Assembly: GCA_030390025.1 (NCBI GenBank) | Contig: CM059432.1 | Coordinates: forward strand, 65,722,001 to 65,786,000 | Direction: 5' to 3' | Origin: Squalus acanthias | Lineage: Eukaryota | Length of the DNA: 64,000 nt | In this document: positions 23,789 through 53,574 of the stretch, piece after piece | Numbering within the stretch: position 1 is the stretch's first letter | How the letters are laid out: each line of letters opens with the position of its first letter | Program-made: the position numbers and the translations under genes | The notes under the pieces: generated by a model | The model's database searches: none | Told to the model about the DNA's origin: nothing | What the model saw: only the letters and a program-made list of their open reading frames with translations

Positions 23789-26700
23789 GGATGGAAATTT
23801 GCCGGTGTTCAGCGGACGGGATCGGTGGTGGGTCGGCAGTTAAATATGAATTGATTGACAGCGGGTCGGGAACCCGCTGTCAAATCGCGCACACTTGCCT
23901 TTCCCGATGTTGGGTTTGCCAGCGCTGAGCAGACCCGACAGACAGCGACGGGGGAACCAATTTAAATGATTAATGGCTTCTTTACAGCCACCTAACAATG
24001 GTTCTAAAACTTACCTTTTGAATTTGACAGCTCGCCCAAGGGTTTCACGCTGTTGCTAGACCACGTCTATGAAGCTGAGGCGGGAGGTCAGTGGCCACTG
24101 AATCAGCTGATGAGTTGATAGCTTCAAATGCCAAGTAAAAGCTACCACCTGACAGAGATATCTTCCCTCAGCCACAAGCATTTCCACAACAGATTCACCA
24201 TGCTGCAAATTTTTACACAAGTCTCCATCCAGTCTGGATCGTTTCTGTCATCTGTACTTTACCTGCCATCTATTCCATCAGCATGGGTGCCCTTGAAACT
24301 CTCTCACCTTGGTCCTCAGAATTCCACAATCAGCCCCAACACCAGCAGCACCAGGCACACCAGCAACCTTCTCCGCAATCAACTGATGCTGCACAGGACA
24401 CAGGGCATCAGCACCCAACCATATTGCTGCCTGGGAGGCCAGGGATGGCCTCACCATGGGCAGATTTACTTCAGTTGACGCTGTACACCCTGGCTACCAC
24501 ATGATGTGCCAGGTTGGCACCACTCCACACCAACACCATAAAGCATCCCTACAATGCCCAAGCCATTCCTTTAACACTCATCACCATTGCAGGGGGTACC
24601 GTTATGTCTCACGATTCACTGCAACTCACTAAGCCACTTCCAAAGGTGCACACAAATCTGTCCAAGAATGCAAAGTGTTGAAAATAAAGTTTTCAATGTT
24701 TGACACCATATTAACAGAAACTTTACATGAACATTGCATAAAACACCCAAGTGCCTACCCTTGTGTGTTGCTAGTTGGTATGACTGCACTAGGACGGCAG
24801 ATCGTGATGTAGAACTGGAATCAGTTTGAGTGGAGCTAAGAAACAGCAAAGGGAGGAAAACATTGGTGGGAGTTGTGTATAGGCCACCAAACAGTAGTGG
24901 TAATGTAGGGCACAGCATTAATCAAGAAATTAGAAGTGCATGTAACAAAGGCAATACGGTAATCATGGGGGACTTTAATCCACATATTGACTGGGCAAAT
25001 AAAATTACCACTAATGGTGTGGAGGATGAATTCTTGGAATGCATGAGAGATGGTTTCCTGGATCAGTATGTGGAGGAACCAACCAGGAACAGGCTATTCT
25101 GGATCTGGTAATGTGTAATGAGAAAGGGCTAATCAATAATCTTGTGGTAAAGGGGCCTTTAGGGACAAGTGACCATAATATGATTGAATTTTATATTAAG
25201 TTTGAGAGTGATGTAGTCCAATCTGAAACTAAGGTCTTCAATCTAAACAGAGGAAACTACAAGGATATGAGGGCCAAGTTGGCCATGGTAGATTGGGAGA
25301 CTACACTAAATGGTATGAAGGTGGACATACAATGGCTAACATTCAAGGAAATAATGCATAATTTGCAACAAACATATATTCCTCGAGGGCATAAAAACCC
25401 AAAAGGAAAAGTGATCCAACCATGGCTAACAAAAGAAATTAAAGCTAGTATTAAGTCAAAGGAGGAAGCTTATAAAGTTGCCAGAAAAAGCGGTCAGCCT
25501 GAGGATTGGGATCTTTTTAGAAATCAGCAAAGGGGGACCAAGAAATTGATAAAGAAAGGGAAAATGGAATATGAGCACAAACTAGCGAAAAATATAAAAA
25601 TGGATTGTAAAAGCTTCTATAGGTATGTGAAAAGGAAAAGACTGGCAAAGGTAAATGTAGGTCCTTTACAGTCGGAGATGGAAGAATTTATAATGGGGAA
25701 TGAGGAAATGGCAGTGAAATTAAATAAATACTTTGTTTCTGTCTTCACGGAGGAAGACACAAAAAACCTCCCAGAAATACGAGAAAACCAAGGGTGTGGC
25801 TAGATTGAGGAACTTACAAAAATTAGTAAAAAAACAGTACTAGCAAAATTAATGGGACTAAAAGCCGATAAATCCCAAGGACCGGATGACCTACATCCTA
25901 GGGTTTTGAAAGAGGTGGCCATTGGGATAGTGGACGCATTGGTTGTCATCTTCCAGAATCTATAGAATTTTGGAACGGTTCCTGCAGATTGGAGGATAGC
26001 AAATGTAACCCCACTATTTAAGAAAGGAGGGAGAGGGGAAACGGGGAACTACAGACCTGTTAGCCTCACATCAGTAGTTGGGAAAATGCTGGAATCTATT
26101 ATAAAGGATGCAATAACTGGGCACTTAGAAACTAATAGTAAGATTGGGCAGAGTCAGCATGGATTTATGAAAGGGAAATCCTGTTTGACAAACCTATTGG
26201 AGTTCTTTGAGGATGTAACTAGTGGAGTAGACAAAGGGGAACCAGTAGATGTGGAGTATTTGGATTTTCAGAAGGCCTTCGATAAGGTCCCACACAAGAG
26301 GTTGGTGAACAAAATTAGGGCACATGGAAATGGGGGCAATATACTAGCATGGATTGAGAATTGGTTAACAGACAGAAAACAAAGAGTAGGGATAAACGGG
26401 TCTTTTTCAGGATGGCAGGCTGTGACTAGTGGAGTACCGCAAGGATCGGTGCTTGAGCCCCAGCTATTCACAATCTATATCAATAATTTGGAGGAGGGGA
26501 CTAAATGTAACATTTCCAAATTTGCTGATGATACAAAGCTAGGTGGCAGTGTCAGTTGTGAAGAGGATGTGAAGAGTCTTCAGGGGATCTCGACAGGCTC
26601 AGGTGAGTGGGCGAGAACATGGCAGATGGAATATAATGTGGATAAATGTGAAGTTATCCACTTTGGCAGAAAAAACAGAAAGGCAGAGTATTTCCTAAAT

Positions 26701-28262
26701 GGTGAAAGATTGGGGAATGCAGATGCTCAAAGGGACCTGGGTGTCCTTGTACATGAGTCACTGAAAGTGAATGTGCAGGTGCAGCAAGCCATTAGGAAGG
26801 CAAATGGTATGCTGGCCTTCATTACAAGAGGATTTGAGTACAGGAGTAAAGAAATCTTACTCCAATTATATAGGGCCTTGGTGAGACCACACCTGGAGTA
26901 CTGTGTACAATTTTGGTCTCCTTACCCAAGGAAGGATATACTTGCCATAGAGGGAGTGCAACGAAGGTTCACGAGATTGATTCCTGGGATGGCGGGACTG
27001 TCGTATGAGAAGAAATTGAGTAAACTAGGCCTGTATTCTCTTGAATTCAGAAGAATGAGAGGGGATCTCATTGAAGCATACAAAATTATTACAGGGCTTG
27101 ATAGGTTGGATGCTGGGAGAATGTTTCCATTGGCTGGGGAGTCTAGAACCAGGGGCCACTGCCTCAGGATAAAGGGTAGGCCATACAGGACTGAGATGAG
27201 AAGAAATTTCTTCACACAGAGGGTGGTGAATCTTTGGAATTCTCTACCCCAGAGGGCTGTGGAGGCTCAGTCATTGGGTATATTCAAAACAGAAGTCGAT
27301 AGATTTCTGACTAGTAAGGGCATCAAGGGGTAGAGAATTCCAAAGATTCACCACCCTCTGTGTGAAGAAATTTCTTCTCATCTCAGTCCTGTATGGCCTA
27401 CCCTTTATCCTGAGGCAGTGGCCCCTGGTTCTAGACTCCCCAGCCAATGGAAACATTCTCCCAGCATCCACCCTATCAAGCCCTGTAATAATATGGCGAT
27501 AGCGCCGGTGAATGGAGTTGAAGCAGAAGATCAGCCATGATCTCACTGAATGGCGGAGCAGGCTCGAAGAGCCAAATGGCCTACTCCTGCTCCTATTTCT
27601 TATGTTCTTATGAGGGTGAGTGAGGGGTGGCTAGTGAGATGGGGATGTGATAATGTTGATAGAGAGGGATGGGTGGAGGTGCAATGTAAGTTAGAGAGAG
27701 TAAGGATGTGCAGAGTGATGGAGATGTGATGGGAGGCACAGCAGGATGAGGTTGAGTGTGGCTTTGTACTAACATTTTGTGATCTACTGAGATCATTGAA
27801 ACGTTTGCGCCACTGCAGCCTGGTCCTCCAGACGACATCCCTGCTAGTGCCCTCCTCTGCAATGTGCAACCAGGCGGTGTTGATCTCCTGGGGAGGTCTC
27901 TTCCACCCATGGGAAGGGAAGGGGACCTCCCTGTGTGCGGTGACTCCCTCCATAAGCATATGGAGGGAGTCATGGGAGAGCCTGGGTGCAGCCCTGTGCC
28001 TCTGTGCAGTGCTAGTCAGTGTTTGCAGCACCTCAATGTTGTAAAACAGACAGCACAAATGTCAAAATAAATTTGGCCATGTCCCTTTAAGGAAACCGGC
28101 TGATGACAAGTCATCAAATGACGTCACCAGACCCGCATCCTCTAAGTGGCCGGGAAACACGCTGGATGGGCTTAACAAGCCCCATCAAGGGAAATTAATT
28201 TCAGAGCGGGACCCGCCACCGACGTTGCTCGCCACGGACCCGCTGAGGTCAGCAAAATCGCT
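23789..28262. mobile_element. Internally deleted PIF/Harbinger transposon (Myb/SANT-like ORF on minus strand), split by a CR1
   Basis: 3-bp TSD gaa; left end ggatggaaattt, degenerate right end; ORF 27600-28058 RAAPRLSHDSL...AWLHIAEE...RTRLQWRKRFNDL is Myb/SANT-like as in Harbinger ORF2. Confidence 0.75.
24792..27612 (+). mobile_element. Younger CR1 LINE (EN + RT + 3' end) nested in the Harbinger
   Basis: ORFs 24830-25111, 25039-25803, 26086-27333 (415 aa RT, KFADD); tail ttcttatgttcttatg. Confidence 0.95.
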
Positions 28263-32132: not shown

Positions 32133-32718
32133 CTAGATAAGTGATGCAATGTATTCTACAGAATGTTAAATTCAGTACAAAATATACTTTTCCACAGTAT
32201 AGTGGTTCATAAACAGAGGGACAAACTAATCCCATTCAGGACATAGCAAATACAAGTGCTATATATAAACATGCAAGTTTTTTTTCCTGGGGTGCCTATG
32301 AATGCAGAGTAAGTCTTTGGCAATTACAGACTTATTTAAGCAATGGGAGTCTTGGACTCTGCAGCATACACAAGCCCACTCCTACAGTAAGTTACTTTTA
32401 TTTGTGGTACGGTCTATATTTCAAACTCAATGGACTGCCTGTTGGTTCATTGACAGTTGTATTAATGGACAGGCCATGAAAAGTAAATGGATGAGGAGGT
32501 TAAAACCACCCTAAGAAATTCTCAGAGGCCGAGATGAGGTAGGAGCAGTTGCGTCATTAGATCCCATTAAAGAACCTAAAATATAAATAAAAATGTTATA
32601 TGATGCTTACTTCTACATTTTTGGATCATTTTTATGTTTGTGTCAATGCTTAAGTAAAGGACAATTTCCCATTTTTCATACTCTGTAACTGAATCAAGCA
32701 CGGCAAGGTAAAGTACAG

Positions 32719-32907
32719 AAATAACAATAGAAAATGCTGGTAACACTCAGGTCAGGCAGCATCGAGGAGAAACAGTGTCAACGTTTCGAGTCGAGGACCC
32801 TTCGTCAGAACGTTGACTCTGTTTCTCCTCGAAGCTGCCTGATCTGCTGAGTGTTTCCAGCATTTTCTGTTGTTATTTCAGATTTCCAGCATCCGCAGTA
32901 TTTTGCT
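32719..32907. mobile_element. Short palindromic Penelope-like-derived insertion with hammerhead core
   Basis: 14-bp TSD aaggtaaagtacag (32705-32718, 32908-32921); ~65-70 bp imperfect inverted arms plus ~28-nt tail; minus-strand CTGACGA-A-GGGTC-ctc-GACTC-GAAA-CGTT. Confidence 0.8.
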
Positions 32908-33130
32908 AAGGTAAAGTACAGCATGGGCCTGACCTGAAAATCCCTACTTCACGAATGTGATTCTTCCCCCCCGCCCGCCCCGTCTACACAATTCCCAAAT
33001 CAGTGATCTAGGCAAGCCTGATAGTTTAATGCTAATTAGTGGCAAATTATGGCCAGGCTTATCCTGTAGATCTGTATAAGAACATAAGAAATAGGAGCAG
33101 GCCTGCTCCGCCATTCAATAAGATCATGAG

Positions 33131-44403: not shown

Positions 44404-44550
<147 letters not shown>

Positions 44551-51810: not shown

Positions 51811-52739
51811 TTACAGACGTCAGTGGTTGGAGACAGCTAGGAGACCACGAGAATAGTACCTGGAATAACCTGAGATCCAGAATCAGAGAGTCCCTGTGTA
51901 TTTCTGGGAACTACCAAGTACTGGGAGAAGAGATAGACTCTCTTTTGCATGGAATGAGCTCTTTCCATGTTCCCAATGGTAACAGTTTGCCGATTTTGGT
52001 AGACAATAACACTACCATGAAAAAGTCTTGTAAATGATTGTCAGATTACCTCACAAAATGAAAATGAAGAGGACAAAGCTCTCCGGTAGTTTCCAAGATA
52101 ACTGAAGTATCAGAAGTTACTGTTTCTCAAGCTGCCATGAATTGTTGCAAGCAACTCCAACCTGTGTGCGTCATTCCTCGCCAAGATCCCTGCAAGTATA
52201 TGCATCAGCCAAGCGAATCGATATGCTTGGAAATAACATCCTGTGGAGTAGGCTTCCCACATCAGGAAAGAACTTTAGGTTAACTGTTCAACTGGCAAGT
52301 GGAGTGGTGTAGAAAGATTCATGGTGCACCTGTGAGAACAATCTATTTTGAGTACTGATCAGTCAATTTTCATATAACAAATCATAGAATTTTTTCCATG
52401 GCATGGTACACAGGGATTTGGGTGTAAGAGTCTCCAGGAAAGTGGTCAGTTGAGGTTGGTGTGAGATCCCCTCCAGAATTGAAAACCTCTACAGCAAGCA
52501 TGTTGAGGGTCTGGATGGCATGAGCATTAGAAACCTAAAACAGTACAGGAGCTTAGTTGCTTTTTAAGTGCAAACTTAAAATCCAAACCAAATGCATCAA
52601 GCAGCCAAGTTTAGGTGACAGGTATTTAAGGCATCAAGCATTCCCATTAACAATAGTGAATGTTTTATTACATTTTTGCATGTTAAAAGAGTTAGGGAGA
52701 AGCTAGTGCAAACATTTCATCCCATCTTGTAGAATACTA

Positions 52740-53126
52740 AAAGTGAGAAGTCGCACAACACCAGGTTATAGTCCAACAGTTTTATTTGAAATCACAAGCT
52801 TTCGGAGCTGCTGCCCCTTCGTCAGGTGAAGTGAAGGAATACGAATCGGCAAAGCATATATAGACAGAGAACAATGCCTGTGTAGTGTACAATGTCAGAC
52901 GACTACATTTTATCAGATAAAATGTAGTCGTCTGACATTGTACGCTGCACAGGCATTGTTCTCTGTCTATATATGCTTTGCCGATTCGTATTCCTTCACT
53001 TCACCTGACGAAGGGGCAGCAGCTCCGAAAGCTTGTGATTTCAAATAAAACTGTTGGACTATAACCTGGTGTTGTGCGACTTCTCACTTTTGTCCACCCC
53101 AGTCCAACACCGGCATCTCCGCATCA
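52740..53126. mobile_element. Palindromic Penelope-like-derived insertion (176-bp arms + 35-nt tail) with two hammerhead cores
   Basis: 12-bp TSD tgtagaatacta (52728-52739, 53127-53138); palindrome centred on 52915; tail 53092-53126. Confidence 0.85.
53001..53038 (+). ncRNA. Putative minimal type I hammerhead ribozyme (mirror copy on minus strand at 52792-52829)
   Basis: TCAC-CTGACGA-A-GGGGC-agca-GCTCC-GAAA-GC-T-T-GTGA: CUGANGA and GAAA cores, 5-bp helix II, helix I TCAC/GTGA, palindromic AGCT helix III. Activity not demonstrated. Confidence 0.6.
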
Positions 53127-53574
53127 TGTAGAATACTAGGTATTTATAATGTAGGCAGCATGGTATATTTACATGGGTCAATGTCACTGGACAACAATGG
53201 CCCATCTTGGCTGGGCTGGGGTGGGGGGGGAGGAGGAAGAGGAGTGATTGGCGAAGAGGAGAAAGAGAAGGAATGGGAAAACAGTCCATCGATAGCTCAA
53301 CGCCACCCCCCCCCACACTTTTTTATTTGTTTCTGTCCATTTTCTTTGTTTAGTCTCTTTATGGCTGCCTTATAAATCATGACTGGACCTGTGGCAATAC
53401 TGAGTGACCTTTATCAAATAGTACCATCTGTTCTGTGCCTATGAACAGGCCTGCACCAATTTTTTTGTGAAATGTATCCCAACATTGGCAGCAATTAGAC
53501 GATTGTTATTTCTGAAACCATGATCTGATACTAGTCAGTGCCAATGACTTCAGTCCCAACAAGAAAGCAAAAGA

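What the first reader, a model, noticed from the sequence alone, without database searches (positions are those of the whole stretch)
52728..53138. Near-perfect 353-bp palindrome carrying two hammerhead-ribozyme cores, with TSD and tail, in a PCMTD1 intron
Seen: arms 52739-52914 and 52916-53091 are reverse complements (only 2 mismatches noticed, 1-nt loop), followed by a 35-nt unpaired tail and bounded by a 12-bp TSD. Each arm holds TCAC-CUGACGA-A-[GGGGC agca GCUCC]-GAAA-GCUU-GUGA, one per strand. Known: Penelope-like elements carry minimal type I hammerheads in their pseudo-LTRs, often with a palindromic helix III that works as a dimer, and often integrate as inverted pLTR + pLTR-with-tail. 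Inferred: a young non-autonomous PLE derivative. Whichever strand is transcribed contains one ribozyme that its own antisense arm can sequester, so any cleavage of PCMTD1 pre-mRNA would have to be co-transcriptional or dimer-dependent. The hairpin is also a potential ADAR/Dicer substrate or cruciform.
Basis: partly seen in the sequence, partly recalled or inferred. Interest (0 to 1): 0.75.

Follow-up and report, generated by a model that had tools for sequence, protein, structure and literature searches.

The report
Mirror-image Penelope stub in shark intron
This 387-base mirror-image insertion in an intron of a shark gene is real and is likely an ordinary stub of a very abundant Penelope-type jumping gene, likely built by copying the element's RNA onto both cut ends of the target DNA, and its two self-cutting RNA motifs are predicted to be folded shut in the host gene's transcript.

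Summary
Contigs of two samples carry both junctions; a contig of another organism reads through the empty site with one TSD copy. The arm belongs to a very abundant family whose copies end at 53091 or 53127/8, the optional-tail signature of Penelope-like elements (PLEs). Inverted pLTR + tail + TSD, and opposite-strand hammerheads, are published PLE anatomy. No link to an RT/GIY-YIG ORF could be shown. Likely mechanism: priming from both cut strands (about 0.55; idea taken from earlier scan notes). The scan has found this layout before: 235 notes in at least 33 genomes, several in this genome, and a second family sits in this window. Interest low.

The parts
52728..52739 (+). Left TSD copy, 12 bp; its last base A52739 is also the first base of the left arm
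   Evidence: one copy only in the empty-site contig of organism C
52739..52914 (-). Inverted pLTR arm without tail; sense to host PCMTD1 transcription; ends at the family's short end point (mirror of 53091)
   Evidence: loose ends behind 53091 in 41 (X1) and 65 (X2) contigs
52792..52829 (-). Minimal type I hammerhead, host-sense copy; predicted cut between 52796 and 52795
   Evidence: mirror of the + copy
52830..52862 (-). TATA-like and Inr-like motifs, facing into the intron in host sense (candidate start 52832)
   Evidence: activity untested
52915..52915 (.). Single unpaired centre base; junction of the two arms
   Evidence: not seen in listed contigs
52916..53091 (+). Direct pLTR arm
52968..53000 (+). 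TATATAT, 21-nt spacer, TCACT (candidate start A52998); same layout as described for Adineta Pen2a pLTR
   Evidence: only 2 such layouts in 64 kb, both in this element; PMC3846280 passage; 52998 recurs as an end of other copies in listed rows
53001..53038 (+). Minimal type I hammerhead: helix I 53001-04/53035-38, core 53005-11, extra base 53012, helix II 53013-17/53022-26, GAAA 53027-30, self-complementary AGCU 53030-33, predicted cut after 53034
   Evidence: no Rfam match
53052..53109 (+). Predicted 9-bp helix between arm (53052-60) and tail (53101-09) that encloses the short end point 53091
   Evidence: prediction only
53092..53126 (+). 35-nt optional tail; in the family it runs on to 53127/53128, so the first two TSD bases are shared with the template
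   Evidence: loose ends behind 53127 and 53128: 72+90 (X1), 89+116 (X2), 33+29 (X8), 26+24 (X9)
53127..53138 (+). Right TSD copy, 12 bp
44404..44508 (-). Nearest downstream PCMTD1 coding exon (acceptor 8.2 kb from the insertion)

Best explanation
This is a 387-bp head-to-head insertion with a one-sided tail and a 12-bp TSD, likely a 5'-truncated stub of an abundant endonuclease-positive Penelope-like element, likely made once at this site by priming a DNA copy on each cut strand, and its two hammerheads are predicted to be silent in PCMTD1 pre-mRNA. Steps: (1, shown) the target held one TSD copy. (2, inferred) the element's nuclease cut both strands 12 nt apart, leaving two 3' ends. (3, inferred) the bottom-strand end primed at the tail end (53127/8) and the top-strand end at the short end point (53091), with 2 and 1 shared bases. 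(4, inferred) both copies stopped 82-83 nt upstream of the candidate start and were joined. (5, predicted) host read-through RNA meets the antisense arm first and zips into a 173-bp hairpin before the ribozyme is made. Odds: PLE-derived insertion about 0.93; one-off rather than a replicating unit about 0.85; priming on both strands about 0.55; silent in pre-mRNA about 0.9.
For: Empty site: a 1769-nt contig of X8 (depth 15.2) lies on 52480-52739 with its bases 904-1163 and on 53122-53560 with its bases 1147-1591; taken as one record from equal length, depth and strand. Family: 11,731 (X1, about 55% of the run read), 18,319 (X2), 2,873 (X8), 2,724 (X9) contigs laid; summed depth 2e5-7e6 on the element against 9-28 on unique flank in X1 and X2 (not a copy number). 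Two preferred 3' ends 35-37 nt apart match the optional 30-40-nt tail (PMC8557442, PMC3846280 passages) and the two RT start sites of the anole element PAc, which cuts and extends both strands (PMC11167929). The tail end lies 114-116 nt from the start of helix II; PAc starts at 111-118 from the same landmark. Other inverted copies with other centres: 52867>52936 (X2), 52876>52929 (X1), 52998>53088 (X1). 5 of 6 common family variants in 53001-53038 keep a valid minimal hammerhead (P about 0.018). Hairpin pairs 0.94-0.99 in 9 of 9 prefixes, hammerhead helices 0.0000. A second hammerhead family with the same layout lies at 32705-32921.
Against: No RT/GIY-YIG ORF could be tied to the family (no genome). 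The centre is not confirmed by a listed contig. Both arms stop within 1 nt of each other although the family runs on upstream; a fold-back explains this more simply, and double priming needs a shared stop. PMC3846280 (discussion read) favours self-priming on an antisense template. One of 6 family variants (53037 G>A, about 20% of depth) breaks helix I unless compensated; linkage was not seen. No variant in 11 core sites is not significant alone (P 0.107). Only three other centres were seen, from selected rows. Folding is equilibrium prediction without proteins.
Confidence: 0.7

Rival explanations
1. Same element, but made by fold-back: one cDNA primed at the tail end turned at 52915 and copied itself, and the hairpin was resolved at the tail boundary by the element's nuclease.
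Against: A 1-nt loop cannot close unless the template has a stem there; the only upstream read-out (6 contigs, agreement 0.83) does not mirror the arm. Two other centres are asymmetric by about 9 and 27 nt. One arm mismatch (52883/52947) is a site where both letters are common in the family (25-65% of depth), which suits two templates, though weakly (about 0.14 by hand count).
Confidence: 0.25
2. One reading: a non-autonomous palindromic PLE derivative that moves as a unit and whose ribozyme may cut PCMTD1 pre-mRNA.
For: Clean TSD and intact cores; non-autonomous PLE derivatives are described (bioRxiv 10.64898/2026.07.22.740005, part 1 and passages; PMC8557442 passage).
Against: Other centres differ; described retrozymes are same-strand tandems; antisense arm precedes the ribozyme on both strands and helices have probability 0.0000; single minimal hammerheads showed no cleavage in vitro (PMC4209133) and the PAc ribozyme needed protein (PMC11167929).
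Confidence: 0.07
3. The ends are real but the perfect interior is an assembly error (collapsed or folded-back contig).
For: No listed contig spans the centre; PMC8557442 notes assembly trouble with such structures; flank depth in X1 differs left and right (11.3 and 27.6).
Against: Arms differ at 2 sites; tail and TSD are asymmetric; both junctions have opposite orientation in two samples; only 32 of 23,775 pieces were listed.
Confidence: 0.05
4. A co-opted hairpin gene (miRNA or siRNA precursor, or splicing regulator of PCMTD1).
For: 175-bp duplex, -336 kcal/mol; present in two samples from two studies.
Against: All 28 Rfam matches are below their gathering scores; absent in organism C; such stubs are common, one more in this gene; it lies 8.2 kb from the nearest known splice site.
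Confidence: 0.03

Closest known systems
EN+ Penelope-like insertions with inverted pLTR, tail and TSD (Adineta Pen2a_Av, PMC3846280, passages and section 11 read; overview PMC8557442, passages; PMC8969392, passages)
   Same: Head-to-head inverted 5'-truncated copy, 30-40-nt tail on one end only, TSD of about 10 bp, TATA-like motif about 20 bp before TCACT.
   Different: No ORF remnant at all: only two pLTR ends, 387 bp in all; 1-nt centre; ORF link not shown here.
[quoted passage not shown]
   Same: Core, extra base between 9 and 10.1, G10.1-C11.1, short helix I, no helix III, palindromic 15.2-16.2; the paper already reports pairs 100-700 bp apart on opposite strands (here about 200 bp).
   Different: Helix II is 5 bp (7-8 bp in the Schistosoma families); sharks are not named in the parts read; no Rfam model matches.
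Poseidon element PAc of Anolis (PMC11167929, passages and section 3 part 2 read)
   Same: Two preferred ends that bound the tail; tail end 114-116 nt from helix II against 111-118; AT-rich target.
   Different: PAc's ORF starts at helix II; here there is no ATG at that place (a candidate ATG lies at 53126-53128). Clade not determined.
L1 twin priming (as described in PMC12016303, passages; Ostertag and Kazazian 2001 not read)
   Same: Two cDNAs of opposite orientation primed from the two target strands, within one TSD.
   Different: In L1 the two cDNAs overlap little (median 12 bp where they overlap); here they overlap over 176 nt and both start at fixed sites; no poly(A).
Non-LTR retrozymes (bioRxiv 10.64898/2026.07.22.740005, part 1 of 5 and passages)
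   Same: ORF-less, pLTR-related, type I hammerhead.
   Different: Defined by same-strand tandem units with at least two hammerheads; this is inverted with one per strand.

Membership tests
EN+ Penelope-like element insertion | Inverted, head-to-head 5'-truncated pLTR copy | tested here: met
   orientation from the hammerhead strand
EN+ Penelope-like element insertion | Optional 30-40-nt tail at one end | tested here: met
   35 nt; family ends at 53091 and 53127/8
EN+ Penelope-like element insertion | Target-site duplication with an empty site | tested here: met
   12 bp; single copy in the X8 contig (same record inferred from length, depth, strand)
EN+ Penelope-like element insertion | Hammerhead motif in the pLTR | tested here: met
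   by motif; Rfam gives no match
EN+ Penelope-like element insertion | Parent ORF with PLE-type RT and GIY-YIG nuclease | tested here: inconclusive
   No genome; no PLE motif hits of substance in the window; protein searches with two arm frames empty or spurious; pattern scans empty (23, 30, 31)
EN+ Penelope-like element insertion | Clade (Poseidon, Neptune) by RT phylogeny | not testable with these tools
   No RT sequence available
Minimal type I hammerhead | Conserved core, base between 9 and 10.1, G10.1-C11.1, palindromic 15.2-16.2, NUH site | tested here: met
   features from PMC4209133
Minimal type I hammerhead | Variation among copies keeps the fold | tested here: inconclusive
   5 of 6 common variants compatible, P about 0.018; no linked compensatory pair shown
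Minimal type I hammerhead | Self-cleavage | not testable with these tools
   needs bench assay
Non-LTR retrozyme | Same-strand tandem units, two or more hammerheads | tested here: not met
   one hammerhead per strand, inverted
Replicating palindromic (MITE-like) unit | Same centre in many copies | tested here: inconclusive
   three other centres seen in listed rows, none equal to this one; no genome-wide count
Known miRNA precursor | Rfam match at gathering score | tested here: not met
   0 of 28 matches reach it

The most novel reading that the evidence does not exclude
The PLE inverted repeat and its one-sided tail are one event: each of two 12-nt 3' overhangs primes a cDNA on sense RNA, one at each of the two start sites that bound the tail, and the two copies are joined head to head. 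That leaves two outward-facing promoter-ribozyme units; the host-sense one could fire a capped RNA that starts 3 nt before its hammerhead, escapes the hairpin, and is cut in trans with RNA from sister copies, or serves as an internal PCMTD1 start.
Probability: 0.4. Interest if true: 0.5.

Novelty: new member of a known kind. Interest (0 to 1): 0.2.

Why it matters
As a locus it matters little: one of very many stubs of a known class. Its use is as a small clean specimen with a known empty site: how PLEs make inverted pLTRs and the tail is still open in print (PMC8557442, PMC11167929), and this copy gives both primer junctions and the centre in 400 bp. It also shows that a head-to-head layout should neutralise the ribozyme in host read-through RNA on either strand, which may be why such stubs are tolerated in introns.

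Tried and rejected
No whole genome, so no copy count. Exact-pattern scans of viral, metagenome and prokaryote contigs: 0 matches each; these collections are not expected to hold shark DNA. Rfam: 28 matches, none at gathering score, no hammerhead family; 0 matches on the 76-nt motif. ORF link: a 42-aa arm frame gave 1 candidate and no hit; the 30-aa open frame 53039-53128 gave 1 hit, a 4818-aa repetitive protein of a horsehair worm whose repeats score 4.6 bits or less each, rejected as spurious. PLE protein motif scan of the window: 4 chance matches to the shortest pattern, none to the other four. No RNA holder listed: no evidence on expression or editing either way; X7 (RNA is a guess) covers only 52480-52622 of the flank, so organism B's state at the site is unknown. 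Monomer folds of 51-141 nt have z-scores between -0.57 and 0.77, so the motif rests on its pattern, not on energy. The hammerhead fold in RNAs from the candidate start is labile: helix II 0.93-1.0 at 7 of 10 lengths on + and 5 of 10 on -, 0.02-0.71 at the others. Cofolding two monomers did not give the double hammerhead as best structure (helix III of the dimer cannot be scored there). Searches of the scan's notes by sequence and near this place were empty. Paper searches: no shark PLE-hammerhead paper in the listings; no paper on twin priming by PLEs among 20 of 52 listed; nothing on this intron. Supplements were not read; most subscription papers on Penelope are outside the library.

Full report
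Observation. The arms 52739-52914 and 52916-53091 are 176 nt with 2 mismatches and a single centre base. A 35-nt tail follows (53092-53126). The 12-bp direct repeat at 52728-52739 and 53127-53138 is identical. Each arm holds a minimal hammerhead pattern: helix I of 4 bp, core, one extra base, helix II of 5 bp, GAAA, a self-complementary AGCU, and a predicted cut after 53034. Rfam does not detect it; the 28 matches are below gathering score, and the best of them are miRNA models fitted to the hairpin.

Host gene. Four coding exons of PCMTD1 lie on the minus strand. Two match the solved PCMTD1 chain; the last is 99% identical to a protein named PCMTD1, and the next best close hits are sharks and rays. 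The first 100 or so residues are not in the window, so the insertion most likely lies in the intron before the exon at 44508, 8.2 kb from its acceptor (inference). That the host is a shark rests and on the scan's notes.

Is it a real insertion? No genome is held, so I used public contigs (24 runs, 10 studies; I laid 5 of the 24). In two samples of organism A from two studies, contigs run from the left flank into the inverted arm (to 52765 and 52763) and from the tail into the right flank (from 53104 and 53106). They carry 21-26 element letters, below the tool's 31-letter bar, as expected where contigs break on entering a repeat. Both samples differ from the window at a few flank sites, so they are probably not its source. 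In organism C a 1769-nt contig lies on the left flank up to 52739 (its bases 904-1163) and on the right flank from 53122 (its bases 1147-1591): an empty site with one TSD copy, if the two rows are one record (same length, depth and strand). Organism D shows the same right-hand row; it is from the same study and was laid once, so I do not count it separately. Flanks differ from organism C at 37 of 699 sites (5.3%, 3.7-7.3), the arms at 2 of 176 (1.1%, 0.14-4.1): younger than that split, but not brand new. No listed contig spans the centre (32 of 23,775 pieces listed).

The family. Thousands of contigs lie on the arm in every run laid. Summed depth falls from the tail end towards the centre, as expected for 5' truncation, but it is not a copy number. 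Among 24 listed loose-end rows (496 not shown) the largest are behind 53091 and behind 53127/53128: copies end with or without the tail. This is the optional tail of PLEs (PMC8557442, PMC3846280, passages). For the anole element PAc the tail is the stretch between two RT start sites, the enzyme cuts and extends both strands, and initiation is 111-118 nt from the start of helix II (PMC11167929); here the tail end is at 114-116. The family runs on upstream of 52915 (6 contigs). Other inverted copies have other centres (52867>52936, 52876>52929; 52998>53088), and tandem joints also occur. Of 6 variants at 5% or more within 53001-53038, 5 keep a valid motif (P about 0.018 against random changes; none of 11 core sites varies, P 0.107). 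The exception, 53037 G>A, may be compensated in a subfamily, but linkage was not seen. I could not tie the family to an RT/GIY-YIG ORF, so PLE membership rests on non-coding anatomy.

How it formed. The most likely route is priming on both cut strands: the bottom-strand end at the tail end (2 bases shared with the TSD) and the top-strand end at 53091 (1 base shared), followed by joining of the two copies. This gives a head-to-head pair from sense RNA and uses both known start sites. I took this reading from earlier scan notes and tested it only in part; it resembles L1 twin priming (PMC12016303, passages). Against it, both arms stop within 1 nt of each other, which fold-back explains more simply, and PMC3846280 (section 11) argues for self-priming. 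Against fold-back, a 1-nt loop needs a stem in the template, which the one upstream read-out does not show, two sister centres are asymmetric, and one arm mismatch is a site where both letters are common in the family (weak). I put double priming at about 0.55 and fold-back at 0.25.

What it does. On either strand the antisense arm is made before the sense ribozyme. In host-sense prefixes the long hairpin has mean pair probability 0.94-0.99 at 9 of 9 lengths, and the hammerhead helices have 0.0000 wherever they could form; the 38-nt motif gains -81.7 kcal/mol as a duplex against -10.4 folded. The two ribozymes are on opposite strands and cannot form the same-strand dimer that minimal hammerheads need; single motifs did not cleave in vitro (PMC4209133), and the PAc ribozyme needed protein (PMC11167929). 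Cleavage of PCMTD1 pre-mRNA is therefore predicted not to occur. Editing of the duplex is plausible from general knowledge and untested. An RNA from there would lack the antisense arm and can fold the hammerhead, though the prediction is labile with length.

Comparison and novelty. Inverted pLTR, one-sided tail, TSD and opposite-strand minimal hammerheads 100-700 bp apart are all in print (PMC3846280, PMC8557442, PMC8969392, PMC4209133). It is not a retrozyme as defined (same-strand tandem). A second hammerhead family with the same layout and a 14-bp TSD lies in another intron of this gene (32705-32921). The scan has noted the layout often: 235 findings in at least 33 genomes, and several in this genome, some said to hold RT/GIY-YIG frames; those notes are unchecked and their families were not matched to this one. 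I found no paper on twin priming by PLEs in the listing (20 of 52 shown), and none on shark PLE hammerheads; the library lacks most subscription papers and I read no supplements.

Verdict. Observation confirmed; interpretation partly supported; new member of a known kind; interest 0.2.

Noticed in passing
window 32705-32921: Second, unrelated hammerhead-bearing inverted insertion in another PCMTD1 intron: 14-bp TSD (32705-32718, 32908-32921), arms about 32718-32785 and 32809-32879, tail 32880-32907, one full hammerhead (minus strand, core 32808-32784). The other arm begins at the self-complementary hexamer next to the predicted cut site.
   Followed up: partly
window 27085-27492: 166-nt inverted repeat, 99% complementary, 76-nt spacer, at the 3' end of a LINE RT frame (25966-27333).
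   Followed up: no
window 52883 and 52886: Both arm mismatches are C>T on the + strand of the left arm (or A>G in the sense of the right arm), 3 nt apart; one is in a CpG. Deamination of cDNA or editing of the template is possible, but n = 2.
   Followed up: partly
window 52723-52727 and 53122-53126: The 5 bases before each TSD copy match at 4 of 5, so the element's tail end resembles the target just upstream of the cut (family D4).
   Followed up: no
window 53039-53128: A 30-codon open frame runs through the tail into an ATG at 53126-53128 with A at -3; candidate ORF start or leader. Protein search gave only a spurious hit.
   Followed up: partly
window 53035 (table 5c, X1): One listed joint in another copy restarts at 53035, the first base after the predicted cut; one row only.
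   Followed up: no
window 52786 (minus) and 53044 (plus): Each arm carries AATAAA just after the hammerhead; the host-sense one could act as a cryptic poly(A) signal if not paired.
   Followed up: no
window 52916-52960: This part of the arm has no cover in organisms C and D at 85% likeness but has cover in A and B, so the subfamily's upstream region is lineage-restricted or diverged.
   Followed up: no
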